Shown piece by piece: positions 2,901 through 52,588 of a stretch of 52,588 bases of DNA. Source of the stretch: Girardia tigrina (lineage: Eukaryota). The notes below the pieces were generated by a model. That model did no database searches and had not been told where the DNA came from. It worked only from the letters and a program-made list of their open reading frames with translations. The DNA lies in the NCBI GenBank assembly GCA_001938485.1, contig MQRK01254919.1, forward strand, positions 1-52,588, given 5' to 3'. Position 1 is the first letter of the stretch, and the number at the start of each line of letters is the position of its first letter. The position numbers were made by a program, and so were the translations under genes.

Positions 2901-4296
2901 ACTTCTCATTCTATTCACATAATTTATCTGCTGTGATATTCAACATGTTTTGATTCTGTAACATTTTTAATTTTATTTTTCTAAAAATCAATCAAAATGA
3001 TATCATTGAGGTATCATTCCATCAAAATAATGCTTCTGAATCATAATTGCCCTTCTCAATAAGTCCTTAGAAATACCACTTTTACACAATTTGCAACTGA
3101 TATTTTTGCTTGTAACGTATTTAGTCTTATAAAAATTGTCGTTTTTCATTAATAAATCGAATATGCCACGGTACACATTTGAATTTTCATTTCTATAAAA
3201 AGATTCGATTTCATATACTGAAGCTTTAATATTCTTGTTGATTTGCAGAATTTAAAAATTAATAGATTTCCAACTTAACATTCTTAACATAACAGCTCCG
3301 TACTTTAAAAGTACTATTGAAACAATACAATAGAAACTTTCAACGCCTTAATATTGTGTTATTAATTGATATTCTTACTTTCATATTATTGCTTTTATTG
3401 ATGTTTTAATAGTTTAGTTTACCTCATTTAGAACTGGCCACTGCAGGTATTGGGGATAACTAAATATTATATTAAAATAGTCGGAGAATAAGAGATCTAC
3501 TCAGCAGGTCACGTCAGATACATGTTCCAAGTCTCATCCAGAGGCCAGCCTGATGCTTGCGATATATCGTCTACATGTCACTAAGAGATATTCCCTAAAA
3601 ACAGGAATGACAGCTGGGGGTCTCACGACGTTTCAAGAGAGGCATCTGGCAGAGTCATGTCGACCAACGTGTTATTAGTTAACTTTTTAAATGAAAAAAA
3701 TTAATTAATTAAAAATGAGAAAAAATTAATAATTAATAATAATTAATAGAATGAAAAGTAAGTTCGTATATATTTTTTCTCATTTTAAAATTTTAAGATG
3801 AAACATTAATATTTGCAAATATTTCTTTTTCAAAAAATAATTTTGGTATAGGAAATTTTTATATTTTCTTTCCGGAAAACATTTTTTTAATAATATTTAT
3901 ATTATTAATATATATTATTAATAGAAACTTCAATTAAAAATAAATATGATTTGTGTTTTGTAAAGATTTGTAATTTTATTTGAAATTTTTTTACGATAAT
4001 TTTTAAAATTTAAAAATATATAATTAAAACATAAATATTTTATACAAATTTATATTTCCAAGTCTAGGAAATAATTTTAAGATAATAATTGAGATTGAAT
4101 TAATTGTTTAAGTTTAAAGTAAATAAAATTTGATTAATTATTTATTGTTTTTAGGGTTAGATTAAAGGTAGATTTTTTACCCAGGCGATATTTCGAAAAT
4201 TTATTAAATATTTAATCTTATTATTTACAAAAATATGTCTCTCATAGGTACTAATATAATAATAATAATAAAATTATTATTAATAATAATAATAAT

Positions 4297-4816
4297 TGTG
4301 AGGAATATTTTATATTGTTTGAATGTGTGAATGTATTGATGCTGTATGTTGATTTAAGTATGTTGAATTTAGAATGGTGATTCTCCCACCAGATGGAAAT
4401 CGGTCTTTTTAAAATTTAAAGTGATTGACTTTCCGAACATAATTAAAATAATTTGATAAGTTTATATTTTGTAAATTAACAATTTAAATTAAGTTTAATA
4501 TTTTTTAAGAAAAGAAAAGCATTTGATTAAATTTAAATAAATTTAATAAGATTTAAATTAAAGTCATTTTAATTAATTTGATAACATTTTTATTATTTTG
4601 TGTTTTTATTTAAAAGTAATTTGAATTATTATTTTTAATTAATATTTTTAAAAAATAAAGATTTAAAAAAATTGTTTGAATAATCATGATTAAAAATAGA
4701 AATTAAAAAACCAATTAGAACGATGTCAAACAGTGAAAGATTTTGCGAGAGTTATGATAACTCTAAATGTGATAATAATAAAAATTCTAATGAAAATTGT
4801 CTCAATGTTTTTAACA
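4297..4816 (+). mobile_element. Solo LTR (TGTGAGG...TTAACA), copy 1
   Basis: Colinear with 10758-11261 and with the reverse complement of 34303-34802. It has TG..CA ends and is flanked by ATAAT on both sides, although this sits inside an (AAT)n tract. Confidence 0.75.
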
Positions 4817-5630
4817 ATAATAATAATAATAATAAAAATAATAATGATAATAATAATTGGGTAATGGGAGTAATATTTCTGGAAATATGAAAGTTTCTTG
4901 ATCGGACGTGAAAACAACTAATTTTAAAATATTGTGCAGTAATTTTAAAAATTATTGGGAAAGAGTTACTTGTGAGGTATTATTGATTAAATCGCTTAAT
5001 CCATCCATTAATGTCCAAACAAGTCTCTCTTCCATTTTTTGGAAAATATTTAATTAGTTATTACGCAAGATGTTTGCATAATCATCAATTTGCTATATAT
5101 AAGACAGCGAAATTGTTGTTAATTAAACCTGAAGATGTGGAAAACCCACCAAAATATATTGCAAAAATAAAATTTAATTTTTTGAATGGCGTTATTGATT
5201 TTATTATTATTACTATTATTATTGGAGTGAAAAATAATTAAGTTGTGGATAGACCGAATATTTGCATGATGAAACTTTTCATAAGTAGAAAGTGAATCGA
5301 CTCTGATGAATGAAATCGGGAATGAAACTACTTTTCAAAAATATTGTCCTGTGAAATTAATGTAAGAGCTTTTGTGGTAAAGGGAATTGAATGTCGATGG
5401 TGAAGAAGTTCATTAAACAAAAAGAAAGACTTTATACCATATCAATAGTGTCGGACAAATTTATCATTTATAATCAATGTTTTTTAACGATTCTACTTAT
5501 TAATTAATTAAGTATTATAAAAAATTAAATAAAATAATATAATTTTCAAAAAATTATAGAAAACAAAAAAAAATAATTAATTATAGTAATAATGGAGTTT
5601 ATTGAATGACGGTTTGTTTTCGCTCTAAAG

Positions 5631-7352: not shown

Positions 7353-9789
7353 TTTATTATATATGAGTGCACTGAAACATGTATAGAGAACAGATTTTCT
7401 TTTTTTTATAATAGTGGAAAAGGGATTCGCATTTTCTAATTTATTAAATTAAATGGTCATATAAATATACAATATATATTTATGCTTTTTTCCTTCTTAA
7501 ATAAAATTTTCTTGTCAAATCGTATTGAAGTCACGATCATATTTTGATCCATAGACCGAATAATTGAACTAAGATTTACTTTAGGATTATTATTTATAAT
7601 GTGAAAGACTGAAAAGAAGTTTTTTCAATAAAAAAAATGTGAAATGATTGAGCAAGATAAAAGGACAATTACATATATATATCTGATAAAGTTGTTATAT
7701 ATTTTTAATAATTTTTAATAAAACAAAATGAACTCTATTTTAAAATGTATTTCGTGATAATATATTTAGACGGTTTTACAGTAATCCTCAGATGATTGAG
7801 ATTTTTACCTCTTGTATAGGTGAAATCGATTTTTGTGTAATCTATTATATAAAATTAATCGAAAGCTCTTTACAGATTGCTTGTCAGTGCCGCTTAAACA
7901 TTGATTTTGAGATCATAAGATTCAATTAACAATGTAATACTCGATATTCCCTCATAATAAAATGTAATATAGAATTCGAGAAACTATCATTCATCTTTGC
8001 GGAAGAGTCCAAGAGCACGCTAATGGAGAGGGTATGAAAAGGACAAAAACAACTTTAAAATATAATTGATTTCTATTGCAATCGTGAACAAAGTCGATAT
8101 TCAATATTTACAAATTTGTTAAAACTAAAACACATTAACATTATTTAAACAAATTATTTAGGAACTCCATTTTCATTTTTTTGCAAGAACCAGTTTCGAC
8201 ATTTCCAAATATAAACAAATATATATTTTAATTTAAATTTAAAACGGTATAATATACTACATATTGTTTTTTTATTAATTTCCATTTTTTACAAAATTAA
8301 TTTATACTAAAAAGTTTTAAACATTAATTTGTTATTTTAAAATCACAAAAATTTATTTTAAGATTATTTAAACTGAGCAAAACTTTATGATACATTATTT
8401 TAAAATTGCTTAAACTTGGTTATTTTTAATACTTCATCATTTAAAAATATTTCCCAAGATTTTTTAATATTGCATTTTTTTGTAAAAATAAAATTCAGTC
8501 AATTAATTTTTAAACGTTACACAAAATATTATTTCTAATTAAACAATTTTTAAAACATTCTATTATTCTCGGTATTTCAATTCCCGGCTTAATCCAAAAC
8601 CAATCTTTAATATTTTGGAAAATTAATTTTGTTTTAGATTTTTTAAAATTTGATCGTTAATAATTTCTATTTTAATTTGATTTTGTCAACAGATTTTAAT
8701 TTATCATATATAAATATTAAATTCGAAAATTTTATCGTTCGCCGAGATTCTAACTATTTCAAAATTCTGTCCAAGCATTTTAAAAATTATTTGGAAAGTG
8801 TGATGTGTAAAGCATTGTTAATTAGATCCAAAAATTAATGTTCAAACGACACTCTCAACCAAGTATTTTAGAGTTTTCGATTAATTTTAAATAATACATG
8901 ATACAATCATCGATTTAACATATATAAGTGGTAAAAAACTCATAATCAGTGAAATAGTCGAAATATATTATATTTAATATTTATTTTAAAATTGCGTCAC
9001 TATTGTTTTATTAAAATATGCCATTATATTTTGTAGTTTATCTATAATTTGTGAAATATTTTTTTCAAACATTGCATTTTTTTTAATTTTTATTAAATTT
9101 TATAAATTTCCTAATTAGTTTTTTTCGCATTTTTTTCTGGCTAATTATTTAAAATCTTAAATTATTTCAGTGAAAAAGACGAATGAACTATGTCCACATG
9201 ATAAAAAATTATTTTTTGAGCGGGTAAAATATACTGAAATAGTTAAAATAATGTTTTTCGGTATCGAAAACTTTTAAACATATTTTAACCAAAAATATTT
9301 TTTAAAAGATGAAAGAAATATTACATTAGAGATATTGAAAGTCAAAGAGTCAAGTTCGCCAGTTCAAAGGGTCTGTCAAAAATGTTCTCTGAAGTTTTCC
9401 TATCAAAATTAAAACATAATCGAAATTTATTCAATTTCTTGACAATAAATGATTTTCTTAATGAAATTTATATTATAAATTTAACTTGTCTTAAATTTTT
9501 GTCAGATAATTTTTATTTCACTCATGTAGAAAAATATGTTTTATAAAAGAATGTTTTACAAAAATACTTTTTATCCATATAATTTTATGTAAAAAATATA
9601 TCCATTATTTTCAACCTAAAAATCCAAACAACATTTTTTCTACATATTTATTCTTACAAAATAAGCTAATAACAATTAAAAGCTCATGGTAAAATTAAGT
9701 AATCATATGATAAAAAAATATTTTCTTTACATTAATGATTAAATCAAATAGTAATTTAGTACTTAAACTCAAATAACACCATTTCAATG

Positions 9790-10170
9790 TTAAATTAAAA
9801 CATGTTTCGCCACTTTTGTGGCATCTTCAGTTCTGCATTTAATTAGAAAGTTATTGTTTATATAGAAAGATGACCAATACGTCACAGTGTGTTACGTCAA
9901 AATACTCTAATATCATTGGATGAATCACTTTGCACATTTAAATCGTCACCTCCGTACTAGAATTGCAGAACATACCCAATCAAGTAGAAAAAGCTTAATT
10001 TTGGACCACATAGTGAAATGTCATGGAACTTAGAGGAGGGTATTTGATAATGATTTTCGGGTTTTGATTAGTTACTTTGATCACAATTATGAAAGGACAA
10101 TTACTGAAGCACTCTTGATAAAATTTTGTAAACCTAGTTTGTCTCTCCAATGTACAAGGATTCGCACTTG
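9790..10170. mobile_element. Penelope-like element remnant, head-to-head inverted structure
   Basis: The minus arm (9790-9940) encodes LNVQSDSSNDIRVF* followed by a hammerhead. The plus arm (9941-10160) encodes the GIY-YIG C-terminal half RHLRTRIAEH...DH...ERTITEALLIK...P. Confidence 0.8.
9795..9835 (-). ncRNA. Minimal type I hammerhead ribozyme motif
   Basis: Minus strand reads CTGAAGA T GCCAC AAAA GTGGC GAAA CATG TT. Stem II is perfect, stem III is palindromic (ACATGT) and stem I is weak. Confidence 0.75.
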
Positions 10171-10399: not shown

Positions 10400-11800
10400 C
10401 AAACAGTTTATTTTTATTAGTCCGATTAAGTATAAAGCTGTAATCTAATCTTTGACCAAAGAAGTTCATTCGTCAACATTTATCAAACATCAAATTAGAT
10501 CAAGTATATGGCGAGTATTCTCCAAATATTAACGCCTGTTGAGGCGATAATTCTCGACACTATCGTTCTTTTGGAGGCATATATTATATCTGACAGACTT
10601 TTGAAGACGAAAGAAATCACAGCAAGCTTATTTCTATCTAAAACAACCGTCAAAAAATGTCTTTAAAAAAGGTGCAAGGTGATTTACACTACTTCTTGTG
10701 ACTCTTCACAAACAGGAATAAGTGAGATGCTGCAAAGAGTTTTAAGATGAATATAACTGTGAGGAATATTTTAAATTGTTTGAATGTGTAAATGTAGTGA
10801 TGCTGTATGTTGATTTAAGTATGTTGAATTTAGAATGGTGATTCTCCCATCCAGATGGAAATTGGTATTTTTTTATTTAAATTTAAAGTGATTGACTAAT
10901 CGAACATAATTAAAATAATCATTTTATAAGTTCATATTTTTTTAATTTAACAATTTAAATTAAGTTTAATATTTTTTAGTAAAATTTAAATTAAATGCAT
11001 TTTTAATAATTTAATAACATTTTTATTATTTTTGGATTTATTGATAAATGGTTAAAATTATTATTTTTAATTAATATTTTTAGAAGTTAAATATTTTCAA
11101 AAATGACTTAAAAAATTGTTCGAATAATCATGATTGAAAATAGAAAAGAAGAAAACCAATTAGATCGATGACAAACGATGAAAGACTTTCTGAGAGTCAT
11201 AATGACTCTAAATGTGATTGTAATAAAAATTCAAATAAGACTTGTCTAAATGTTCTTAATTATAACGGTAATCCTAAAACTGTTAACTCCTTTGTTACTG
11301 AATATACGACTATTGTATTGAACTGTGGTACATTATCAAAGCGGGAATCAATGAAATAAGAAAAAAATGAGGGTTTCTCTTCAAAAAGCCAGTTACTCAG
11401 TCAACTGAGATAATGACTACAATATTTTTGATTTCAAGGGGCTTTTATTGGTTGACTAATAGGAAAGAAATACAAGAGTTTTCGCTGGACTACTTTACCA
11501 CATTCATGATGCCACCCTAGTCCATACAGATGTTATTAACAAGACCGCCATGAACGTAGAAGTTTGAAGGAATTTCTCATCAATCTTATAGTCTAGATTG
11601 GACAATCATCGATTTTTGCAAATTCTCAAAAGTTATGTTAGACTTCAGAGATAAAAAAATTAACAAAAAATGATGGTATTAGGCTCAATAAGATGCAACA
11701 AGTGTATTGATGTACAATGAGATAACACAGAAAAATGAAACGTTCATCTTTATATTAAACTTCGATTTTTACATTATTTAGTAAATGTTTTGACATGTCT
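10400..11800 (+). mobile_element. Old mariner remnant interrupted by solo LTR copy 2
   Basis: HTH-like DRLLKTKEITASLFLSKTTV lies before the LTR. After it come FVTEYTT..SKRESMK, SHQSYSLD (degenerate HPPYSPD) and RCNKCIDVQ*DNTEK. The ends are approximate. Confidence 0.55.
10758..11261 (+). mobile_element. Solo LTR, copy 2
   Basis: Starts TGTGAGG, with a 5-bp TSD ATAAC (10753-10757, 11262-11266). Highly similar to the reverse complement of 34303-34802. Confidence 0.85.
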
Positions 11801-18786: not shown

Positions 18787-19816
18787 ATTCTCGTTTTAGT
18801 TTCGCAGGGACACTATGTGAAAGTATATCTGACTAGTTCGCACAGATTACCGATGTTACAGGTCCCTTGATTTTATTAAAACGAATTTATAACTTAATTA
18901 TTTTCGCATTATGTCAAGAGTAAATAGTTTTTAAAATTTCAGTTATTGTGTTGATACTATTGTTATAATGTTACTATAAACATTCATGTTTTCAGTTTAT
19001 AAGATAAAATGGTTTTGTATCATTATTGCAATTATACTTTCAATTGTTTCTACTAATTTATCGTCAATTTTAAATGGTCTCTTCCTTATTTACAAACATA
19101 ATACATCATAATTGTTATTAATGTTTAGGTATAGTTAAAAAGAATAGTTATTAGTTGAAGTAGTAATTAATAAATAATCTCAAAATAACACTATTTACAG
19201 ATACTTTCTTATTGGCGTAAGGTATAATTCAAAAGGTTTTTCAGTTTTACAGGATTCAAAATGAGTTACAAACATCACAAGGTTGAAAGGAAATGAACAT
19301 TACCATTAATCGATTCAAGGGGTATTCAGATTATTCTTCACTATAAAAGAAAAATAAATCTAATATTAAATAATGAAATATTTACTTAGAACACTATTCT
19401 GAAGACATCAGAAAATCAGAGGTAAAGGGTTATCAAATTTAAAGTAACAAAAGGAAACTCTTGCGTAGTGAAAGAAGAATTATCGCTTATATTATAAAAC
19501 TGCAACAGAAGTCCCTCTTAGAGGATGTAGCTTCGAATTCAAGAAAACAGGATGTCCCATTTGCTTCGCCACACGAAATATCTCCTAGACAATTAACCAA
19601 AACAAAACGGCGTCACAAATATATTAAAATTTTGAACGAACATTTAAAAATTAATTTTATTTTTATATGTGGGCGTTTTCAAGATTGTATCAATGTATAT
19701 TTTGTTTATTACATTTTTTGGTTATTTATTTTGTATATTATAAACCTATAATTTGTTTAATCCTAGATTCATATTCTTCGTAACAAAAAACTCCAAACGG
19801 CTTGTTTTAAACATTA

Positions 19817-21003
19817 CAGGGTGCGGCAGCTATTTGAGAACAAAATGACATAAAGTTCAAAAAATGAATATACAACAGAAAAATAACATTTATTACAATT
19901 TAAAATTTTACATATATTAACACGNNNNNNNNNNNNNNNNNNNNNNNNNNNNNNNNNNNNNNNNNNNNNNNNNNNNNNNNNNNNNNNNNNNNNNNNNNNN
20001 NNNNNNNNNNNNNNNNNNNNNNNNNNNNNNNNNNNNNNNNNNNNNNNNNNNNNNNNNNNNNNNNNNNNNNNNNNNNNNNNNNNNNNNNNNNNNNNNNNNN
20101 NNNNNNNNNNNNNNNNNNNNNNNNNNNNNNNNNNNNNNNNNNNNNNNNNNNNNNNNNNNNNNNNNNNNNNNNNNNNNNNNNNNNNNNNNNNNNNNNNNNN
20201 NNNNNNNNNNNNNNNNNNNNNNNNNNNNNNNNNNNNNNNNNNNNNNNNNNNNNNNNNNNNNNNNNNNNNNNNNNNNNNNNNNNNNNNNNNNNNNNNNNNN
20301 NNNNNNNNNNNNNNNNNNNNNNNNNNNNNNNNNNNNNNNNNNNNNNNNNNNNNNNNNNNNNNNNNNNNNNNNNNNNNNNNNNNNNNNNNNNNNNNNNNNN
20401 NNNNNNNNNNNNNNNNNNNNNNNNNNNNNNNNNNNNNNNNNNNNNNNNNNNNNNNNNNNNNNNNNNNNNNNNNNNNNNNNNNNNNNNNNNNNNNNNNNNN
20501 NNNNNNNNNNNNNNNNNNNNNNNNNNNNNNNNNNNNNNNNNNNNNNNNNNNNNNNNNNNNNNNNNNNNNNNNNNNNNNNNNNNNNNNNNNNNNNNNNNNN
20601 NNNNNNNNNNNNNNNNNNNNNNNNNNNNNNNNNNNNNNNNNNNNNNNNNNNNNNNNNNNNNNNNNNNNNNNNNNNNNNNNNNNNNNNNNNNNNNNNNNNN
20701 NNNNNNNNNNNNNNNNNNNNNNNNNNNNNNNNNNNNNNNNNNNNNNNNNNNNNNNNNNNNNNNNNNNNNNNNNNNNNNNNNNNNNNNNNNNNNNNNNNNN
20801 NNNNNNNNNNNNNNNNNNNNNNNNNNNNNNNNNNNNNNNNNNNNNNNNNNNNNNNNNNNNNNNNNNNNNNNNNNNNNNNNNNNNNNNNNNNTCGTAAGAG
20901 TAGCTTCTGCCATGTCTACCAGCAAAAATAAAATTATGTAATTATAACACACAAAAAGATATGGTGTCTATATTACGTGTTCTCAAATAGCTGCCGCACC
21001 CTG
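19817..21003 (-). mobile_element. Young Tc1/mariner-type element whose interior is an assembly gap
   Basis: Perfect 26-bp TIRs CAGGGTGCGGCAGCTATTTGAGAACA, flanked by TA on both sides. Ns run 19925-20891. A possible start MAEATLT lies at about 20913 on the minus strand. Confidence 0.85.
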
Positions 21004-28077: not shown

Positions 28078-30955
28078 TTAGAATTAAATAATAATTCGCT
28101 TGGCCGATTTTCCTTAACGGATATCGTTCTTTTCTCTCTTCATTTTGTTATTAATCATAATTTTGTTGTTTTCATTATAATAAATGAAACTACATTTTTA
28201 TTAATAATAGATTTACCAATTCACTGAACAAAAAGCGAAAATTGTACCTTGAATAATTTACCATTAACCTAATCCATGACTGAAGTCGATTCATGTTTCC
28301 AATATTTGATACAAAAAGAAGTAGTCTTTACATAAGCAAGTATCTGTTGTTCAATATTACATTAAATAAATTCTCGGAAAGCTAACATTAAAAAATAAAA
28401 GCATAATTTAGTAGGACCATTAAAATTTTCAAAAGGATAATAAAGCAATTATGTTAATATGTAACAAAAAGAAACGATTCCCGGTCAAATGAACGAAGTG
28501 TTCATCCATGTTTATTACCTCAATCAACATAGAATCCATTGTAATATTACAGAAACAGTTTTATAAAACAATTAAATGTTCAATAGTGTTTAAATATTGA
28601 ATAAAAAATTATTATAAAAAAGTGTGAAAGAATAATAAATACTCATACTTCTTCTGGTCAAGTACTTTCTCTTCAATCTTTATCTCGCCAATCCTTTCTT
28701 CAACTCCTTCATCCTCCTTCTAATGTAGAAATAGACTTTTTTTGATATAATTCTGAGACTTGATTCAGCTTTTTTCATACAAATTGTGAAAAAAACAACA
28801 TTTATAAAAGGTATTTATAACACTTTCACAAAGTTTTTGTTTCAAGACTATTTCTTAATATTGGTGCACATATAATAAACTTTAATCTATTATATCGTGG
28901 TCATATCTTTAGCGATCGTTTCGATATTGAGAACACATACAAATTGAAGGCTCAATTCAAAGAAGCTCCATTTCTTTAAATGTATAGTAAAAAAGTTTTA
29001 TAGTGTTTTACATTTCCCCTAAAAATAAATAATAAAAGCAATTATGTTGGGGTTCCAAAATATAAATTCAAATGTTTAATCAAAAAGTTTTGTAAAAAAA
29101 TTAATTAAAAATTATTCTCTGTTAAAAAATAAATAATTTTCGATTCGCATTATTTTAAAAAAATTTGTAGAATAATTATAAATATTTTGAGATTTGTTTT
29201 AGCTATTCAATTTCCAAGGTTATAAAAAACTAGTATATAAACAACTACAAAATCAGTCATACTCACACCATAATTTTCTATAAAATTTTATAAGAGGAAG
29301 AATTCGTATCGAAGAGAAGTAAATTTTGTTATTTAAATAATCTTTTCGTTTGTTTATTTTCAAAATCAACTACTGAACTTAGTATCCCATATTCGAGAAA
29401 AGGTTCATTTTGATTTTGTTTTAACGGTTATTGTTCGTTTAGAAGATTTATAGTTTCTATAATAATAAACTGTGATCTGACAAACTCGCATTGTTTAACC
29501 GTTTGTGAAAGTGTTTATTGTTATTATTGATTTGAATAACATAAAGCTGTGTGTCTTTTCTTTCGGTGCAAGCTCATCATACATAAACCGGACAATCGTG
29601 ATTCTGATATTGTAGCTCTTAGCCATGTTTTAACACGTCTCAATATGTTAAAACATCGTTCAACTGTACAACTCGTAAATTTTTTTGACTGATAGAAAAT
29701 AGTCACAATGTTCAAGAACGTCTATTAAAGTTGATGGAAAATTTCTTGATGGAGAAAAAATTGTTCATTTTTCGTACCATGTTGTAGCCTCGATTTGTAA
29801 ATTTATTATATTGTATTGTGCACCGAGTTTTTTTGCGTTTTTTAAAAATATCGTTTTATCTAATTTTATAATACATTTTGGATGAAATTGAAAAATTGAA
29901 ATTATGGTTTGGTTATCTTTAGAAAATCTTGACGTTGAAGAAGATATTAAAGAATTCAAATATGGTATAAATATTGATTGTCGAAAGTTTATTTCAGGAG
30001 TGTTTCCTGTACAATTATTTCTATATCTTTGCTTGGAACAACACCTGGCTATTTCAATATTGATGAATAATTTTGCAGCCAAATCGAATGATTCCTTAAA
30101 AATCTCTTGAGATTTTTCGTCAGAGTTTTCTCGATGCAATAAAAATATATTAATTAAATCCTGAACGTGTCGATGAGCACCTTGTAAATCTAATTGTACA
30201 GACTGAAGAGTCTGGGTTACTGGTTCCAAAATGGCTGAATATTTGGCTATTATTTTTAAACAAACGATAAACATTCCATTACTAGTCGCCGTTAAAAAAC
30301 GATAAGCTTCTTGGCTTGTTGAACCTGTCCAATTCGTTGACATTTCCTCTAGTTTATTAAAAATAAGCCCAAAATGTTTTGAGAAAATGGAAATACTTTT
30401 ATATTTTGATGTCCATCTTGTTTCTGAAAGAAGAGGAATTGTGGGAACAGTAGCTCTACGTTTTGAACTCTCTCTAAAAAATGTTATTATCGATTTTACT
30501 ATTCCAATTGTTTGACGGACTTCTGCGACAATGTTCAAATCATTAACTACTAGATTTAATCTATGAGAAGCGCAATGTACATAAGTAGCATTTGGATATC
30601 AATTTTTTATTTGCGCCGGAACACCAGCTTCCTTTCCGGTAATAGTTGCACAACTATCGTATCCTTGTTCAATCAATTTACTCATACCCAAACCATATCC
30701 CACACACTTGTTAAGAATTGCAGAACTGATGCTTTTAGCATCCATTTCGAAAAGCTTCAAAAAGCCATCAAATTCTTCACGAAAGTTTTTAGCTTCATCA
30801 ACAAATGGAACACCAAGTGAAAGCTGTTCTACCCCTGCAATATCAGCTGTTTCATCAGCTAAAATTGAAAACCCAATTGATTTATTGACTTCTGAAATGA
30901 TGGAATCTATCATTTCCAATTCACAAAATTCAATTAATTGATGTTCAGCTCTCAC

Positions 30956-31556
30956 AAAGGTTTAATCAAAAAGTTTGATCCCAAATACCATGAATCTAAA
31001 AATTATTTCCCAATCATATAAAATTCGTGATATGTTCAGTAATAAATCTCTCACTCCTCTCGGTTTGTGCTCCGATCTTGTTTATAAATATGCATGTAAT
31101 GGGTGTAACGCCACATACATTGGAGAGACATCTCGTAATCTCTGCAAACGGATCAAAGAGCATAGTCGGTTGGATAATGGGAGCAATATTGCCGAACATA
31201 ATTTAAAATGTAAAAAGAAAATCGGAGAAAATGATTTTCAAATTCTGTGTAATCGATTTAAAAATTACTAGGAGAGAGTAACGTATGAGGCCTTATTAAT
31301 AAGATCCATGGATCCAAAAATTAATATTCAAGCTTCACACTCTACTTCTCTGTTAAACATTTTCAAATTGAGCCTTTATTACATGATTGATTGCACAATC
31401 ACATTTCTCATATATAAGCTGCAAAAAGCCAGTGTTAATTTAGTCTGAAGATGGCGGGTAACCCGTCGCGATTAATTACAAAAATAAATTTTGAAAAATG
31501 GCGTTCACTTTTTAAAAATGAAGAATATCAATTGCCATTATTTTTTACATTCCTTA
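30956..31556 (+). mobile_element. 5'-truncated Penelope-like element (GIY-YIG endonuclease + 3' pLTR)
   Basis: LVYKYACNGCNATYIGETSRNLCKRIKEH...EALLIRSMDPKINIQ, with a TAG at 31269-31271 replacing Trp. The 3' end matches both arms of 45410-45930. Confidence 0.92.
31438..31485 (+). ncRNA. Hammerhead motif with a mutated GAAA box
   Basis: CTGAAGA (31445) T GGCGGG TAA CCCGTC GCGA TTAATT. The sister copies at 45.5 and 45.9 kb retain GAAA. Confidence 0.65.
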
Positions 31557-31941
31557 TTAAATTTTTAACTTAATTTTTTTTATTAAAATTAAATAGCTTT
31601 TAGTTAGCTTTTAGACTAAAATAACTTTTTTCTGAGACTATGGGAGATCGACATAGTACAATTAAAACGATAAATTATTCAAGTTTCCAGGGGGACAATT
31701 GCCCTCTTTGCCCCCTTTTGGGGACGCCCATGTATTAGGTTGTCCTGGTAAAATGCAAGAAAAATGAGACTCTTTCTTCAGATTGCAAACCTCAAAAGTT
31801 GTATAAGAGATAATAATCACAAGCCTTTTACTAACATGATCAAAGTGTAAAAAATGATCTTTTTAAATAACTTCTAATAGTATTACTGAAACTATTGGAA
31901 TTGTATCATGAACTATCATTAAAAATTTGTAATAATTGTAC

Positions 31942-34302: not shown

Positions 34303-34802
34303 TATTAAGAACATTTAGACAAGTCTCGTTTGAATTTTTATTACAATCACATTTAGAGTCATTATGACTCTCAGAAAGTCTTTCATCATTTGTCATCGTT
34401 ATAATTGGTTTTCTTATTTCTATTTTTAATCATGACTATTCGAACAATTTTTCTAAGTCATTTTTAAAATATTTAACTTCTAAAAATTATTAATTAAAAA
34501 TAATAATTTTAACCATTTCTCAATAAATCCCAAAATAATAAAAATGTCATCAAATTATTAAAAATGCATTTAATTTAAATTTTACTAAAAAATATTAAAC
34601 TTAATTTTAATTGTTAAATTAAAAATATGAACTTATAAAATGATTATTTTAATTATGTTCGAATAGTCAATGACTTTAAACTTAATAAAAAATACCAATT
34701 TTTATCCGGGTGGGAGAATCACCATTCTAAATTCAACATACTTAAATCAACATACATCATCCATACATTTACACATTCAAACAATTTAAAATATTCCTCA
34801 CA
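34303..34802 (-). mobile_element. Solo LTR, copy 3
   Basis: Reverse complement of copy 2, with a 5-bp TSD GTGTA (34298-34302, 34803-34807). Ends are TG..TA. Confidence 0.85.
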
Positions 34803-36131
34803 GTGTACATTGTGAATTGTTTGTAATTTATTTGATATACGTGACTAATTTATTGAATTGTAATTTGAATTGACGAATTACTTGGATGCCAAAAATTAGT
34901 CAGAATTAACAAACTGATTATTTACTATAATTTTGATTCATCAATAACAAATAAAAACGGAAATAAGGTTCAAGCAAAATCAACTGAAGATTTTATATAG
35001 AACTTTCTAAACAATTTCCGTTGGAGTTTCAAATTTATCAATTTAACAAAACTGAGATCTCTCGTCATTTGTGACAATATCAAAGAGTTCTTGCCTAATA
35101 TGTGATCATCGATTGAATTGTGAAAGTGAAGTAAACATTTAGGTCGATTGAATATGTCTAGGATAAAATTCTTTGCTCTTTACAACATTAATTTGCTGAG
35201 TTTAAATAGCGTCCAACAGATTCCAAAGAATAAAATAAAAATGAAAACATTAGAATTAATTGATTTAGATTTAAACGAAAAAAATAATCAGTTAGGCTCT
35301 ATTCTTTAAAAAGAGTCAGGTACTTAAAAATAGAAATTGTACCTGTTAGTCGCGTGTATGCCATTTTCATTATCAGCAAGTTCACAATTTATATTCAACA
35401 CAAAAAATTATTAATATAACAAAAATCGATTTTAAAATAAATTTTTGTTAACAAAATTTTTTATTTCACTAAATCCTTAATTAATTTCGTTTAAGTTATT
35501 ATTCTAAATTTTATCCTAATTTTAAATTTATCTATTTAATTTATTATATTCGATAACATTTTTTGAAATTTTATTTAATCAAACTTGATATTATTTTTTA
35601 AAATTTCTTTATAAAAATATTCAACTTAATTTTAGTTTCTTTAAAATTAATTTCGTAGTAGTATTTTATTATATATTTACATTATAAATTTTATACCTTT
35701 TATTATTTATTCTAAAATTCTTATTTTAAAAACTTTTATTAATTACTTTCCTATTAAAATATAAGGAGTTTATTTAATGTAAGCTTTTTAGAATTTAAAC
35801 TCTGTTTTTTGTTTTTTTTATAATTATTTAGTTTTTTAAAATTTTAAATTAAATTATTTGGCGTATTGAAAATTTTAACTAACTCATATTACCACACAAG
35901 TAAGATTAAGTAAATTCAATTTTTTCTCTCTTAAGCATTGACATAAGAATATAATAAAATATTTAATATTGCACAAATTAAAAAAAACATTTGTAATATA
36001 ATATATTTTTGTATAAGTAAATAAATTATATAAAATCTCGAATCGAATATATATTTATATCATACAAAGAATAATCAAAAATATTGAAATCAGAGTAGGT
36101 TAATCAACAAATTTTCGACCAGAAAGATCAG

Positions 36132-43561: not shown

Positions 43562-44848
43562 TATTAGGTTTTTTAAAAAATAATGTCGTTTTTTGAATGG
43601 TGCTGATTTTTGATCATGTTTTGAAATAAATCTTTATCATTAATTTATGTTTTGTACATAATTATAAAGCTTATGAGAAACTCAATATTTCTATGATACT
43701 TTGTTTAAATATTAACTTTAAAATAACGTGTTTATTTAAATGTTTGTCAATATGCAAAAATCGCAATTACGAGCAATTTTTTTGTATGAATTCAAACTGT
43801 GCCACAAAGCATCGGAGGTCGCCCGTATTATCAACGGTGCATTAGGCGATAGAACCACAAGCAAACGTATGTTACAACGTTGGTTCGAAAAATTTCAAGG
43901 AGATGAGACCCTCAAAGATGATGATGCCGTGGACGGACACCTGCTATTGAAAATGAAAATTTGAAGGTTCTAATAGAAGCAAATCCACACACAACAGTTT
44001 GAGAGCTTGCGGAGGAACTAGGTGTCATGATAGGAACAATTTCAAACCATCTGCGTGACATTGGGAAGTCGAAAAAAACTGGATAAATGGATTCCATACG
44101 AATTAAATGACAATCAAAAAAGGCGTTGTTTTGAGGCATCGTCTTCACTATTTCATCGGAACAAAAATGATCTGTTTCTGGACCGAATTGTAACGTGTGA
44201 TGAAAAGTGGATTCTCTACAACAATTGGAGACGTTCTTCTCAATGGTTGGACCACGATCAAGCTCCGCAGCCCTTTCCAAGGCCAAAATTGTACCAAAAA
44301 ATATAATGGTGACTGTTTGGTGGTCTGCAGTCGGTGTTATTCATCATAGCTTCTTAAATGCAGGTAAGATAATAACGGTAGAGAGATACTGCCAGGAAAT
44401 TTTCAAAATGAACCAAAAACTCCTACAACAACAACAACCAGCATTAGTCAATAGGAAGGGGCCTATTCTTCTCCACGACAACTTTCAGCCACACATCGCA
44501 CGTCTGACAATGAAATTGTTGAACGAACTTGGCTACGAAACTTTGAGTCATCCAACATACTCACCTGACATCTCGCCTACAGAGTATCACTTTTTCAAAC
44601 ATCTTGACATTTTCCTCCAGGAGAAATACTTCAAAAATCAAGGAAATTCTAAAACTGCCTTCAACGATTTCATCGCCTCCAGAAAGCAAGAATTTTATGC
44701 AACCGGAATAGATAAACTCGTTCAACGTTGGTAAAAGTGTATTGATGGTAACGGTTTTTATTTCGATAATTAAAGTTGATTCTAAGCTGAGATATTTGTC
44801 TTTAAAGATTAAGGTTAAAAATGACATTATTTTTTAAACAACCTAATA
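43562..44848 (+). mobile_element. Mariner element, full length, frameshifted, inserted in the hAT
   Basis: About 30-bp TIRs TATTAGGTT(T/G)TTTAAAAAATAATGTC. Motifs KWIPYEL, IVTCDEKWI, LLHDNFQPH, HPTYSPDISPTEYHFF and RW*KCID. Confidence 0.95.
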
Positions 44849-45477
44849 CTACTGTAAAAACCGTCAGTTTGATTAAGGATCGTGCTCTGAATCACGGCCT
44901 CTTCAAGTCACTTAGTCAAGATTTTGGAAGCGAGCGTTAAATTTTTCATAACCACATGAAAGTCTACTGTCTGTCACGAGGGAGAGCTTTAGCGTGTTTC
45001 TTCGAATTGCGAGAAGAAGTCAAAGCTTTGCTAAAGGAACGTGACTATGATCTTCTCAAAGAAATTGAATCAAAAGAATTCAACCTGATGCTAGCTTATT
45101 TGAATAACATTTTCAGTCGTATTAATGACCTGAGTATTTCTCTTAAAGGAGAAAACATAAAAATATTAAAATGTTGTAAAAAGTTAAATGGTTTCAAAGA
45201 AAAGTTACATCTCTGGTGTCGACGAGTTCTAAGAGATAATCTTTCAAATTTTCCATCACTCGAAGAAATGGTTGATGAAGAAGAGTCCCTAATTACAAGT
45301 GTATGTGAAGAAATTGTTAATCATTTGGAAAAACTATCAAAGTCATTTGATGGATGTTTTGGAGGAGAAGAACTAGTAACTTCTAAAGAATTGATAATAA
45401 ATCCTTACTAAGGAATTTAAAAAATAATGGCAATTGATATTCATTATTAAAAAGTGAACGCCATTTTTCACAATTTA

Positions 45478-45524
45478 TTTTCGTAATTAATTTCGGTGGA
45501 TTACCCGCCATCTTCAGACTAAAT
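45478..45524 (-). ncRNA. Minimal type I hammerhead ribozyme motif
   Basis: Minus strand reads CTGAAGA T GGCGG GTAAT CCACC GAAA TTAATT, with one mismatch in stem II. Confidence 0.75.
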
Positions 45525-45852
45525 TAACAACTGGCTTTTTGCAGCTTATAAATGAGAAAGGTGATTATGCAATCAATCATGTAATAAAGGCTCTATTTGA
45601 AAATGTTTAACAGAGAAGTTGAGTGTGAACCTTGGATATTAATTTTTGGATCCATGGATCTTATTAATAAGGCCTCAGACGTTACTCTCTCCCAATAATT
45701 TTTAAATCGATTAAAGAAAATTAATATTCAAAATTGATATTCAAGCTTCACACTCAACTTCTCTGTTAAACATTTTCAAATAGAGCCTTTATTACATGAT
45801 TGATTGCATAATCACCTTTATCATTTATAAGCTGCAAAAAGCCAGTGTTAAT

Positions 45853-45896
45853 GTAGTCTGAAGATGGCGGGAATCCGCCGAAATTAATTACGAAAA
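45853..45896 (+). ncRNA. Minimal type I hammerhead ribozyme motif
   Basis: CTGAAGA (45858) T GGCGG GAAT CCGCC GAAA (45880) TTAATT. Stem II is perfect and stem III is palindromic (ATTAAT). Confidence 0.8.
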
Positions 45897-46909
45897 TAAA
45901 TTGTGAAAAATGGCGTTCACTTTTTAATAAATCCTTACTCTATTAATTTGGATTATAGTTCAAATGATGAAAAGTTGAAAGACGATCTTATTGAATTGCA
46001 CACAAATCGTGTTCTTGAAATGCAGTTTGAAAATAAAACTCTGGAACAATATTGATGCTTCGTAATGAAAGTGTTTCCAAGATTTTGTGAAAAGGCACTG
46101 AATGTATTAGTTTAATATTATTTTCTTTTATTTGTGAAAATGTTTTTAATTAATAAAATATTTTAACGTTTTATTTATTATCAATATTTCAGTTTAAAAG
46201 CCTTTTATTACCTACAATTATTTTGAATACAATACAAATTTTAAATACAATTTAAATACAAAAAATAATTTACAGTATTCAAATTTTTATTATTATTACG
46301 ATACATTAATGATAAAAGTTTTTTAATTTTTTTACGAAACTGTTTAGAATTAAGTATTTGTCAAATCTTTAATTTATAGAATTTCAAACTGACTTTAAAA
46401 TTATCAGTTTTTTTTATTTACATCTCTGGTAACAAAGTTCATTATTTTATTTTTTTAGAATAACATTTAAAATTAGTACAAACATAATTATTCTTGTCTT
46501 TATATATTTCTTTTAAATCAATTATTTAAAAATCCATTATTTCCCAATTAATTTCATTTTAAATTTTTACTCTACAATTAAAATTTGATTATTTCCGAAA
46601 ATAACTTTTTAAAATTAATTAAGATTATTTTTTAATTATGATTGCTTAGAAAACTTTTGATTTTAAATATTTCCTTATTTTAGAAATTCTTTATAAATAT
46701 TAATTGTTTCAAAAATTTTAAGAGTGAGCCTGTCCTTCACAATCAATAAGAACAAAAAGAGGATTAATATTACAACAATGGAACTAGATTATTGAAGTTT
46801 ATGAAAAAAATGAAAAAAAGTTATGAAGAAGGATATTTTCCATAAGCATGAATCAGTACTAAATTTGACCTTTTTCTAATGTCAGTGTCTGAAATTTGAT
46901 TAATCAAGT

Positions 46910-49029: not shown

Positions 49030-50225
49030 ATTTTAATCAATAAATATATATTAATTTCAATGGATTAACCGTCATCTTCAGATGAACTGATTTTTTTAAA
49101 AAAGAAATGGACTTATATACTGCAGATAATGATTATGCAATCAATACGACATCAATAAATCATTAAAAACCCCTCAATAAAGTTGTCGAGAGTGCATTTT
49201 GAACGTTAATTTTAGGATCCAAAGATCTTATATATAACGCTTCACATGTCACTCTCTCCCAACAATTCTTAAATTGAGTACACAGAGTTTTTAAGTTATA
49301 GATTTTTATCTCCCCTTTACAATGTTTACTATGTCCAGTAATATTACTTCCACTTTCCTTACGATTGTGTTCCCGGATTCTCTTACAGAGATGACACAAA
49401 GTCTCTCCAATGTATGTGGGATTACACCCATTTCATTTATATTAGTAAATGAGATCCGAACACAATCCTAACGTTGTTGAAGATTTATTGCTAAACATAC
49501 GTTCGATTTTTTTGGTACGAGAAATTATTTTTAAATTTATGGTATTATTTACTGCTTTTAAAATGGAATTTTTAGATGTTTTAAAACCTTCTGAATAAGG
49601 TACGTTAAAAATATATCCATGTTCTAAACTATTTTTATTATTTTTACAAGATTGATCTTGAACATCTGTTAGTTTATTATTATTACTTTTTAATTAATTT
49701 ATCAATAGTTTCTTTCGTTAGATTATCAACTACTGATTTGGAAAATCATATATTAATTTTGTTAATTTATTGAGACTTTCATCACATCGCCTATATGTAG
49801 ATGAAAAAGCACATGAACGAAAATAAGGTATTTGATCATAATTCTACGATATTTAAATTTACAAAAACTATTTGGGGTTGTATACAACCTTTATCAGTTT
49901 TCTTTCTGTATATCTCTGTCTCATAAGAACTATTCTTTCTCTCAATTAACAAATCCAGAAACGATAATTTATTGTCATTCTCGGTCTCCATAGTGAACTT
50001 TACATTTAAATGCAAAGAAGTCATATAATTTTAAAATAGAGAGATATCATTCTCATTGTTAAAAATCAAGAAGATATATCAACATAGAGTTTATACGCAA
50101 AGGGCCTCTGACCAGAAAATAAATCGATTTTATCTTCAATACTCGAAAAAAATATCGAAGCTAAAGTGGGCGCTAATGGTGAACCCATAGCTACTCCATT
50201 AAACTGTTTGTTAAATTTATATATT
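49030..50225 (-). mobile_element. Penelope-like element remnant (RT C-terminal half + GIY-YIG + 3' end)
   Basis: QFNGVAMGSPLAPTLA, LNVKFTMETENDNKLSFLDLLI, EIYRKKT, TYIGET.CHLCKRIREH and EALYIRSLDPKINVQ. Confidence 0.92.
49035..49092 (-). ncRNA. Minimal hammerhead motif at a PLE 3' end
   Basis: Minus strand reads CTGAAGA T GACGG TTAAT CCATT GAAA TTAATA. Stem II is partly decayed, and distal AATCAGT/ATTGATT pairing is possible. Confidence 0.65.
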
Positions 50226-51699: not shown

Positions 51700-52588
51700 T
51701 TTTTTAATATTAAATTTATTCCCAATACAGACGCGTTTCACCATTTCGGCATCTTCAGTGCAATGAAATAAAGTGATTAATTGCTATTTATATAGTTGAA
51801 AACTATTACATCATACGTCTCAAAAACATGCTGTTTTTTCTTTAAAAAAAAGAAAAGTATTTTTAATGATATTTTAAAAAACTTTAATATGATTAGATGA
51901 ATCACCTTGCAAGTTTAAACATGGTTTATGATGCTTTATTAACAATGCTTCGGCAATAATCCTTTCATAATTTGTGTCAAAATTATTTAAAATCACTTTA
52001 AAATCTTTATTGTAATCCATAAGATTACCTTNNNNNNNNNNNNNNNNNNNNNNNNNNNNNNNNNNNNNNNNNNNNNNNNNNNNNNNNNNNNNNNNNNNNN
52101 NNNNNNNNNNNNNNNNNNNNNNNNNNNNNNNNNNNNNNNNNNNNNNNNNNNNNNNNNNNNNNNNNNNNNNNNNNNNNNNNNNNNNNNNNNNNNNNNNNNN
52201 NNNNNNNNNNNNNNNNNNNNNNNNNNNNNNNNNNNNNNNNNNNNNNNNNNNNNTTTAAGCCAACAGGTGTTCGATGTTCTAAAAATCGTTTGAACTCTTT
52301 TGCTCTCTCTGAGTACGGTAATTTTAGATTGATAGTCATTTGATTATCAATGTCATTTCCCGAAGTTATATTAAAAAAAGATGAACAGAATTTAAATAAA
52401 ATGATTAATAGACTAGTTAAAAGTAATGATATTAGTAATGAATTAAAAAACGGTTTTATAGTACAAGGGTCGCAACCTTCGAAACTTTATGGTCTACCTA
52501 AGATTCATAAAGAAGGTATTCCAATGCGACCTGTTTTGTCTATGATTGGTAGTGCACAATATCAAGTTGCAAAAATTCTAGAGAGATT
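51700..52588. mobile_element. Penelope-like element, head-to-head inverted structure across a gap
   Basis: The minus arm has LKLPYS (52254-52339), then after the gap ERIIAEALLIKHHKPCLNLQ..KVF* and a hammerhead. The plus arm from about 52350 has the RT N-terminal motif LYGLPKIHKEGIPMRPVLS, open to the window edge. Confidence 0.9.
51720..51768 (-). ncRNA. Minimal type I hammerhead ribozyme, best-preserved copy
   Basis: TTTCATTGCA CTGAAGA T GCC GAAAT GGT GAAA CGCG TC TGTATTGGGA. The core is complete with a GUC cleavage triplet and palindromic ACGCGT stem III. Stem I pairs at 9 of 10 positions, counting G-U. Confidence 0.85.

What the first reader, a model, noticed from the sequence alone, without database searches (positions are those of the whole stretch)
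45395..45939. Palindromic double-hammerhead mini-element built from two inverted Penelope 3' ends
Seen: a roughly 515-bp, essentially non-coding insertion splits the hAT reading frame at INPY|SINLD. It is flanked by a 15-bp duplication, TAATAAATCCTTACT, whose first 6 nt also match the element's own sequence (microhomology). It is made of two inverted copies of the 3' end of the PLE at 30956-31556, giving a near-perfect stem of about 190 bp with an outward-facing hammerhead in each arm. Established: PLE pseudo-LTRs carry minimal hammerheads and inverted pLTRs occur. Inference: this is either a one-off integration product or a non-autonomous fold-back, retrozyme-like unit. A transcript from either strand would carry a ribozyme motif and form long dsRNA.
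Basis: partly seen in the sequence, partly recalled or inferred. Interest (0 to 1): 0.7.

Follow-up and report, generated by a model that had tools for sequence, protein, structure and literature searches.

The report
Back-to-back Penelope retrotransposon stub
The palindrome is real but ordinary: it is two cut-short ends of a common jumping gene (a Penelope-like element) joined back to back in one insertion, likely made when both strands of the cut DNA were used to start copying, and its two ribozyme motifs are predicted to be smothered by the hairpin.

Summary
A 515-bp insert lies between two copies of a 15-bp target duplication, and hAT paralogues carry that 15-mer only once. The insert is two head-to-head 3' ends of a Penelope-like element (PLE), with a 203-column stem at 96% and a minimal hammerhead in each arm.

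It is not a mobile mini-element or a retrozyme. Its centre was found only once in the assembly. 23 other head-to-head insertions of the same family each have a different centre and size (about 0.4-2.7 kb). The family has at least 1,868 ends. In all 24 insertions one arm carries the roughly 40-nt PLE 'tail' and the other does not.

This layout is published (Craig 2021, Arkhipova 2013, Cervera 2014), and this scan noted it before at other places in this genome. In 9 of 24 the tailless arm reaches further 5', which excludes simple cDNA snap-back there and favours priming from both target strands. Both target junctions show excess microhomology. In either full transcript the ribozyme stem has pairing probability 0. 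Public runs could not test the junction. Low interest.

The parts
45395..45409 (+). Target-site duplication, left copy (15 bp). Its last 5 nt also match the element's long (tailed) end.
45410..45713 (-). Left arm: 5'-truncated PLE 3' end, antisense. Holds the end of the GIY-YIG frame, the pseudo-LTR and the tail. The family match stops at 45713.
   Evidence: (loose ends at 45713)
45405..45448 (-). Tail (about 40 nt, including the 5-nt overlap with the TSD). In full-length copies it reads on into the N-terminal codons of the ORF.
45470..45530 (-). Minimal type I hammerhead motif of the left arm. Core at 45517-45511; C-A mismatch in helix II at 45497; predicted cut between 45485 and 45484.
45714..45716 (.). 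Three central bases that match neither arm
45717..45744 (+). 13-bp tandem duplication at the 5' start of the right arm (likely polymerase slippage at the join)
45717..45930 (+). Right arm: shorter 5'-truncated PLE 3' end, sense, without tail (short end, +5 from the anchor motif; the last 6 nt overlap the TSD)
45846..45900 (+). Minimal type I hammerhead motif of the right arm. Core at 45858-45864, extra U before helix II, palindromic TTAA loop; predicted cut after 45889. The ATG at 45864 is the position at which the ORF opens in full-length copies.
45925..45939 (+). Target-site duplication, right copy
44941..46052 (+). Host: decayed hAT transposase frame (FAM200/Buster-like), interrupted at INPY|SINLD
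30969..31560 (+). Separate, older 5'-truncated copy of the same PLE family (92% identical; ribozyme core broken). Not the source.

Best explanation
This is one insertion of an endonuclease-bearing Penelope-like retrotransposon, consisting of two 5'-truncated copies joined head to head, likely made when both strands of a 15-nt staggered cut primed reverse transcription, and likely inert since. Shown: the TSD with its empty site, the two arms, the tail on one arm only, a centre found once, and 23 like insertions with other centres. Inferred: the GIY-YIG nuclease nicks both strands. One 3' end anneals by a few bases at the distal start site (end of the tail) and the other at the proximal start site (start of the tail). 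Both reverse transcriptases stop after 200-300 nt, and the two cDNA ends are joined (3 extra bases and a 13-bp slip). The hammerheads are passengers of the pseudo-LTR. A read-through transcript would fold as a ~200-bp hairpin in which neither ribozyme forms.
For: The family has 1,868 exact matches to a 23-nt end motif, and 862 match a tailed-end motif. Full-length copies have a 2,764-nt unit with RT and GIY-YIG matches and an ORF that opens inside the hammerhead and runs through the tail. End positions are bimodal, +2 to +12 and about +39 to +44. 24 of 24 head-to-head insertions with both outer ends resolved have one tailed and one tailless arm, with 24 different centres. 19 of 24 have a TSD of 12-17 nt; 0 of 240 mismatched flank pairs reach 12. 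In 9 of 24 each arm holds sequence that the other lacks, so neither is a copy of the other. Overlap of target and element averages 3.4 nt at short ends (null 1.3) and 2.2 nt at long ends (null 1.1), in 16 insertions. In vitro a Poseidon PLE cuts and extends both strands and starts at two sites that bound the tail (PMC11167929).
Against: For this locus alone the tailed arm is the longer one, so cDNA snap-back cannot be excluded here. In vitro, start sites did not differ between strands and were reported as not homologous to the cut DNA, unlike the genomic pattern here. The 24 insertions are not a random sample: many came from searches with the palindrome. The microhomology null is simple, and my TSD finder picks the longest repeat, which can inflate overlaps. 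Many copies are single-orientation, so double priming is not obligatory. No public run was seen to bridge the centre.
Confidence: 0.8

Rival explanations
1. Same identity, other mechanism: one cDNA was made from the tailed end, folded back on itself (or was self-primed, as Arkhipova 2013 propose) and was copied back to the short end, which then annealed to the other target end.
For: At this locus the tailed arm reaches further 5', as in 15 of 24. Arms of the same insertion share rare alleles far more often than random pairs do: 22 against 1.5 expected, in 11 of 26 insertions. The left arm stops inside a small palindrome (AATCGATT), as does L002. Self-priming was proposed in PMC3846280.
Against: In 9 of 24 the tailless arm reaches further 5' than the tailed one, which a copy of the first cDNA cannot do. 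The centre here has no clear microhomology. Arms differ at common polymorphic sites 10 times against 16.7 expected for random pairs. Shared alleles also follow from two primings on one RNA.
Confidence: 0.12
2. A non-autonomous fold-back or retrozyme-like element that is transcribed, cut by its ribozymes and re-inserted as a unit.
For: It is non-coding, has a TSD, carries two hammerhead motifs and both outer PLE ends, so the parent's enzymes could in principle recognise it. Arkhipova 2013 report pLTR-flanked cargo moved in trans.
Against: The centre was found once. There is no tandem same-strand unit. Helix II probability is 0 in both full transcripts. The left ribozyme is damaged. Sibling palindromes all differ in centre and length.
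Confidence: 0.04
3. An assembly or amplification artefact (chimeric inversion).
For: The assembly is fragmented (255,254 contigs), and 24 of the first 30 listed family ends run off a contig end inside the element. No listed contig of the public runs bridges the centre.
Against: The arms differ at 8 of 203 columns. The insert is bounded by a true TSD with an empty site in paralogues. The same tail asymmetry and TSD recur in 24 insertions and match published PLE structure.
Confidence: 0.04

Closest known systems
EN+ Penelope-like insertions with an inverted 5'-truncated copy and a tail at one end (Craig et al. 2021, PMC8557442, Fig. 2 legend and text; passages read)
   Same: Inverted 5'-truncated copy joined at the 5' end, 30-40 bp tail at one end only, hammerhead in the pLTR, assembly breaks.
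   Different: Here both copies are cut very short (304 and 214 nt), so almost no ORF remains.
Pen2a_Av and Pen2_Av derivatives of Adineta vaga (Arkhipova et al. 2013, PMC3846280; passages read)
   Same: Head-to-head inverted pLTRs flanked by a TSD; tail on one of the inverted pLTRs; tail overlaps the first codons of the ORF.
   Different: TSDs there are 8-10 bp and here mostly 12-17 bp (apparent, including overlaps). They favour self-priming, which 9 of 24 insertions here do not fit.
Dual opposite-strand minimal hammerheads of Schistosoma PLEs (Cervera and De la Pena 2014, PMC4209133; parts 1-2 of 4 read)
   Same: Two minimal hammerheads about 100-700 bp apart on opposite strands, attributed to truncated PLEs; extra nucleotide before helix II, G10.1-C11.1 pair, palindromic loop 3.
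   Different: A different family and sequence. That paper does not describe the junctions in the parts I read.
Poseidon PAc of Anolis, in vitro (Frangieh et al. 2024, PMC11167929; parts 1-2 of 4 read)
   Same: The ORF opens at helix II of the hammerhead. Two reverse-transcription start sites bound the tail: the distal one at ORF nt 111-118 there, and at about nt 102-107 here. Both strands are cut and extended; AT-rich targets.
   Different: They saw no strand difference in start site and no homology to the target. The genomic copies here show one start site per arm and short microhomology.
L1 twin and dual priming (Meyer et al. 2010, PMC2837659; passages read)
   Same: TSD-bounded inverted halves from priming on both target strands, microhomology at target junctions, little at the internal junction.
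   Different: L1 twin-primed halves do not overlap. Here both arms copy the same ~200 nt, closer to their hypothetical 'dual priming'.
Non-LTR retrozymes (Cervera and De la Pena 2020, PMC7229834, abstract only; Li et al. 2026, bioRxiv 10.64898/2026.07.22.740005, part 1 of 5 read)
   Same: Non-coding, type I hammerhead, PLE-derived.
   Different: Retrozymes are tandem same-strand repeats with at least two units. This is an inverted single-copy pair.

Membership tests
EN+ Penelope-like element (parent family) | Single ORF with RT and C-terminal GIY-YIG | tested here: met
   RVT_1 47.8 bits, above its cut-off. GIY-YIG at the C-terminus, E 6e-4, below its cut-off. A 2,764-nt unit in L150/L151. The copies carry stops and frameshifts.
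EN+ Penelope-like element (parent family) | Pseudo-LTR from a partial tandem, containing a hammerhead | tested here: met
   L151 and L152 have a 5' pLTR that reads on into the ORF, with the ATG inside the hammerhead.
EN+ Penelope-like element (insertion structure) | Inverted 5'-truncated copy, tail at one end, TSD | tested here: met
   This locus and 24 of 24 head-to-head insertions; TSD of 12 nt or more in 19 of 24.
Penelope/Poseidon clade (against Neptune, Nematis) | RT phylogeny; no Zn-finger-like linker between RT and EN | not tested
   No tree was built. The C-terminal EN and the hammerhead argue against Naiad/Chlamys.
Minimal type I hammerhead of PLEs | CUGANGA / GAAA / UH core, extra nucleotide at 9-10.1, G10.1-C11.1, palindromic loop 3 | tested here: met
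   The right arm passes; 0-1 hits per shuffled window, in 2 of 30 shuffles. The left arm has one helix II mismatch. Other families in the window vary helix II and keep a palindromic loop. Rfam finds nothing here.
Minimal type I hammerhead of PLEs | Self-cleavage (as a dimer or protein-assisted) | not testable with these tools
   Predicted unfolded in the full hairpin. No same-strand partner in cis.
Non-LTR retrozyme | Two or more tandem same-strand units, each with a hammerhead | tested here: not met
   Only a 13-bp and an 11-bp tandem repeat in 44800-46500; one hammerhead per strand.
Non-LTR retrozyme | Abundant monomeric linear or circular RNA | tested here: inconclusive
   Only assembled contigs were available. 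One RNA-guess run under the best holder's species label laid 0 records on the centre, which is no proof of absence.
Non-autonomous fold-back element or MITE | Many copies of one unit with the same centre and ends in different flanks | tested here: not met
   Centre found once; 24 different centres.
hAT transposase (host) | Homology to hAT transposases | tested here: met
   7 homologues at 44-78% identity; 5 carry PF14291, 1 carries PF05699, 1 is named FAM200C-like.

The most novel reading that the evidence does not exclude
Head-to-head Penelope insertions are the fossil of one concerted reaction. A single (probably dimeric) complex primes both strands of a 12-17 nt staggered cut, always gives one strand the distal start site and the other the proximal one, uses 2-6 nt of target-RNA pairing at each, and mostly copies RNA from one source locus. 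This would explain the tail at one end only, tie it to the two in vitro start sites, and correct the view that priming needs no homology.
Probability: 0.4. Interest if true: 0.5.

Novelty: new member of a known kind. Interest (0 to 1): 0.2.

Why it matters
The locus itself matters little: it is a dead stub in a dead transposon. The family census is the useful by-product. The origin of PLE tandem and inverted structures is described as undefined (PMC8557442). The 24 of 24 tail asymmetry, the 9 of 24 cases that exclude snap-back, and the microhomology at both target junctions give concrete predictions for the existing in vitro PLE assay. Such hairpins may also feed small-RNA silencing of the family (inference, untested), and they likely break short-read assemblies.

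Tried and rejected
Rfam scan of the window: no hammerhead hit; two chance matches at E 0.24 and 0.65.

Public runs: only assembled contigs could be laid, and no listed piece bridges the centre with 31 bases on each side. The low-depth cover of 45715-45729 in X1 and X2 appears to come from contigs that then run on unlike the window. This is inconclusive for both artefact and expression. Depth was not used as copy number.

A 6-nt microhomology at the centre: I first read one from a BLAST extension, then rejected it, because the family departs at 45713.

Many hits ending at query position 328: not a shared breakpoint, only where the left arm ends.

Three 2-mismatch matches to the centre: chance matches in an unrelated repeat. 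Two partial BLAST matches do not continue into an inverted arm.

A genome-wide count of palindromes by one gapped pattern could not be run, so the fraction of insertions that are inverted is not known.

One RNA or two: unresolved. The arms share rare alleles (22 against 1.5 expected) but still differ at common sites (10 against 16.7). One RNA, two RNAs from one locus, later conversion between the arms, or consensus effects in the assembly all remain possible.

The window's PLE at 30969-31560 as the source: rejected.

Full report
Observation. The sequence shows TAATAAATCCTTACT at 45395-45409 and 45925-45939, with 515 bp between. Of 13 other copies of the host hAT, 6 have the left and right flanks adjacent with one copy of the 15-mer, 2 more read on with one copy, and 5 were uninformative. 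The repeat is therefore a target-site duplication. The host frame is homologous to FAM200-like hAT transposases (7 hits) and was already broken by stops. The insert folds as one hairpin: 45444-45646 pairs with 45730-45930, with 8 differences in 203 columns, MFE -317.6 kcal/mol and z = -40.7.

Anatomy. The left arm (45410-45713, minus strand) and the right arm (45717-45930, plus strand) are both 3' ends of one PLE family. The left arm runs to the family's long end and overlaps the TSD by 5 nt. The right arm stops about 39 nt earlier and overlaps the TSD by 6 nt. The centre holds three extra bases and a 13-bp tandem duplication. The arms are 92% identical to the window's PLE at 30969-31560 and up to 97% identical to copies elsewhere, so that copy is a relative and not the donor.

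Parent family. A 23-nt end motif has 1,868 exact matches in the assembly, and a slightly different motif that includes the tail start has 862. Among the first 30 listed matches, 19 end at +2 to +12 and 11 at +23 to +43. [quoted passage not shown] In full-length copies the ORF opens at the ATG inside the hammerhead and runs through the tail. This is as reported for the Anolis element (PMC11167929).

Is the palindrome a mobile unit? No second copy was found. A 30-nt centre pattern with up to 1 mismatch matches once. A BLAST of 45685-45765 (39 of 39 candidates scored) has no other spanning hit, although the tool warns that DNA search can skip common words. A 26-nt pattern with 2 mismatches adds three chance matches.

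Instead, the loci that I fetched hold 24 non-redundant head-to-head insertions with both outer ends resolved, this one included; duplicates L004, L005, L008, L009, L037 and L041-43 were left out. All 24 centres differ. All 24 have one tailed and one tailless arm; two tailless arms end slightly early, at -4 and -14 (table compiled). TSDs are 12-17 nt in 19 of 24, and 7-11 nt in the other five (one internal mismatch allowed). An exact-match control on 240 mismatched flank pairs never reached 12. The sample is biased towards palindromes. Many other copies are single-orientation, mostly without a clear TSD.

Ribozymes. The right arm fits the minimal type I hammerhead: CUGAAGA, an extra U, a 5-6 bp helix II, GAAA, a palindromic UUAA loop, then UU. 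Shuffled windows gave a hit in 2 of 30. Four other motifs in the window vary helix II yet keep a palindromic loop. The left arm has a helix II mismatch: pair probability is about 0.15 in isolation, against about 1.0 for the right arm. In either full transcript helix II probability is 0, because each motif pairs with its antisense copy. Metazoan minimal hammerheads are thought to work as same-strand dimers and cleave poorly (PMC4209133). A head-to-head pair offers no such partner in cis.

Mechanism. Shown: both element 3' ends abut the TSD, at the two family end positions. In 9 of 24 insertions the tailless arm reaches further 5' while the other arm alone has the tail, so neither can be a copy of the other. 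Target-element overlap averages 3.4 nt at short ends (null 1.3; none of 20,000 resamplings reached it) and 2.2 nt at long ends (null 1.1; P = 0.001). This is for 16 insertions: L035 and L040 were dropped as misparsed, and negative values were set to 0. Inferred: both nicks prime reverse transcription, one at each start site, helped by a few paired bases, and the truncated cDNAs are end-joined.

Against this reading: the in vitro study saw no strand preference and no homology, the null is simple, and at this locus alone snap-back is not excluded. The arms of one insertion share rare alleles 22 times against 1.5 expected (11 of 26 insertions), yet differ at common sites 10 times against 16.7 expected. 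Related templates are likely, but one molecule versus two, or later conversion, is unresolved.

Artefact and expression. Differing arms, a true TSD and recurrence argue against an artefact. Public runs were available only as contigs, and none listed bridges the centre. Neither the junction nor transcription was tested independently.

Known work. Craig 2021 (passages) describes the inverted 5'-truncated copy and the tail at one end. Arkhipova 2013 (passages) describes head-to-head pLTRs with TSD and tail. Cervera 2014 (parts 1-2 of 4) describes opposite-strand hammerhead pairs 100-700 bp apart. Meyer 2010 (passages) defines twin and dual priming for L1. Retrozymes are tandem same-strand units (Li 2026, part 1 of 5; Cervera 2020, abstract). 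Five searches listed no paper that counts the tail asymmetry or applies dual priming to PLEs. I saw most hits only as listings, read no supplements (Frangieh's Figs S1-S2 may bear on the junctions), and older subscription papers on Penelope are outside the library. Earlier notes of this scan on other pieces of this genome reach the same reading; they are not independent support.

Verdict. Real, explained, and a new instance of a known PLE insertion type. Interest 0.2. The family statistics are a modest, testable addition.

Noticed in passing
window 5098-5160 (+), 9776-9844 (-), 49058-49122 (-), 51706-51772 (-): Four further minimal-hammerhead-like motifs with different helix II sequences and palindromic loops (TATA, CATG, TTAA, CGCG). 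Two adjoin PLE-like sequence at about 70% identity to this family.
   Followed up: partly
window 7797-7914 / 8825-8942: Inverted repeat (118 nt, 77%) in another PLE-like family; possibly an older head-to-head insertion.
   Followed up: no
window 30969-31560 within 29765-30961: The older PLE copy adjoins another decayed transposase remnant on the minus strand (DUF4371 match).
   Followed up: partly
window 44204-44734: Mariner-type transposase fragment (Transposase_1, E 3e-15) just upstream of the host hAT frame.
   Followed up: no
L010:1578-1696, L018:1849-1944, L040:1778-2524, L099:112-223, L106:590-765, L114:2981-3279: Several insertions carry pieces from near the 5' part of the ORF (unit positions about 100-510) at the internal junction, which suggests a recurrent template jump.
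   Followed up: partly
window 45713; L002:1806; L175 and L176: Four copies leave the family sequence at the same point, inside a small palindrome; a possible truncation hot spot.
   Followed up: partly
L162 (C250791): A second tailed minus-strand arm lies about 850 bp before a head-to-head insertion; possibly nested or neighbouring insertions.
   Followed up: no
window 4292-4832, 10753-11277, 34304-34804: Three copies of another ~500-bp non-coding repeat, one inverted, at 74-96% identity.
   Followed up: no
window 19814-20967: Stretch open in several frames on both strands for more than 330 codons; not examined, may be an N run or a simple repeat.
   Followed up: no
window 46106-46300: A different high-copy repeat begins here and cuts off the hAT frame's 3' part.
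   Followed up: no
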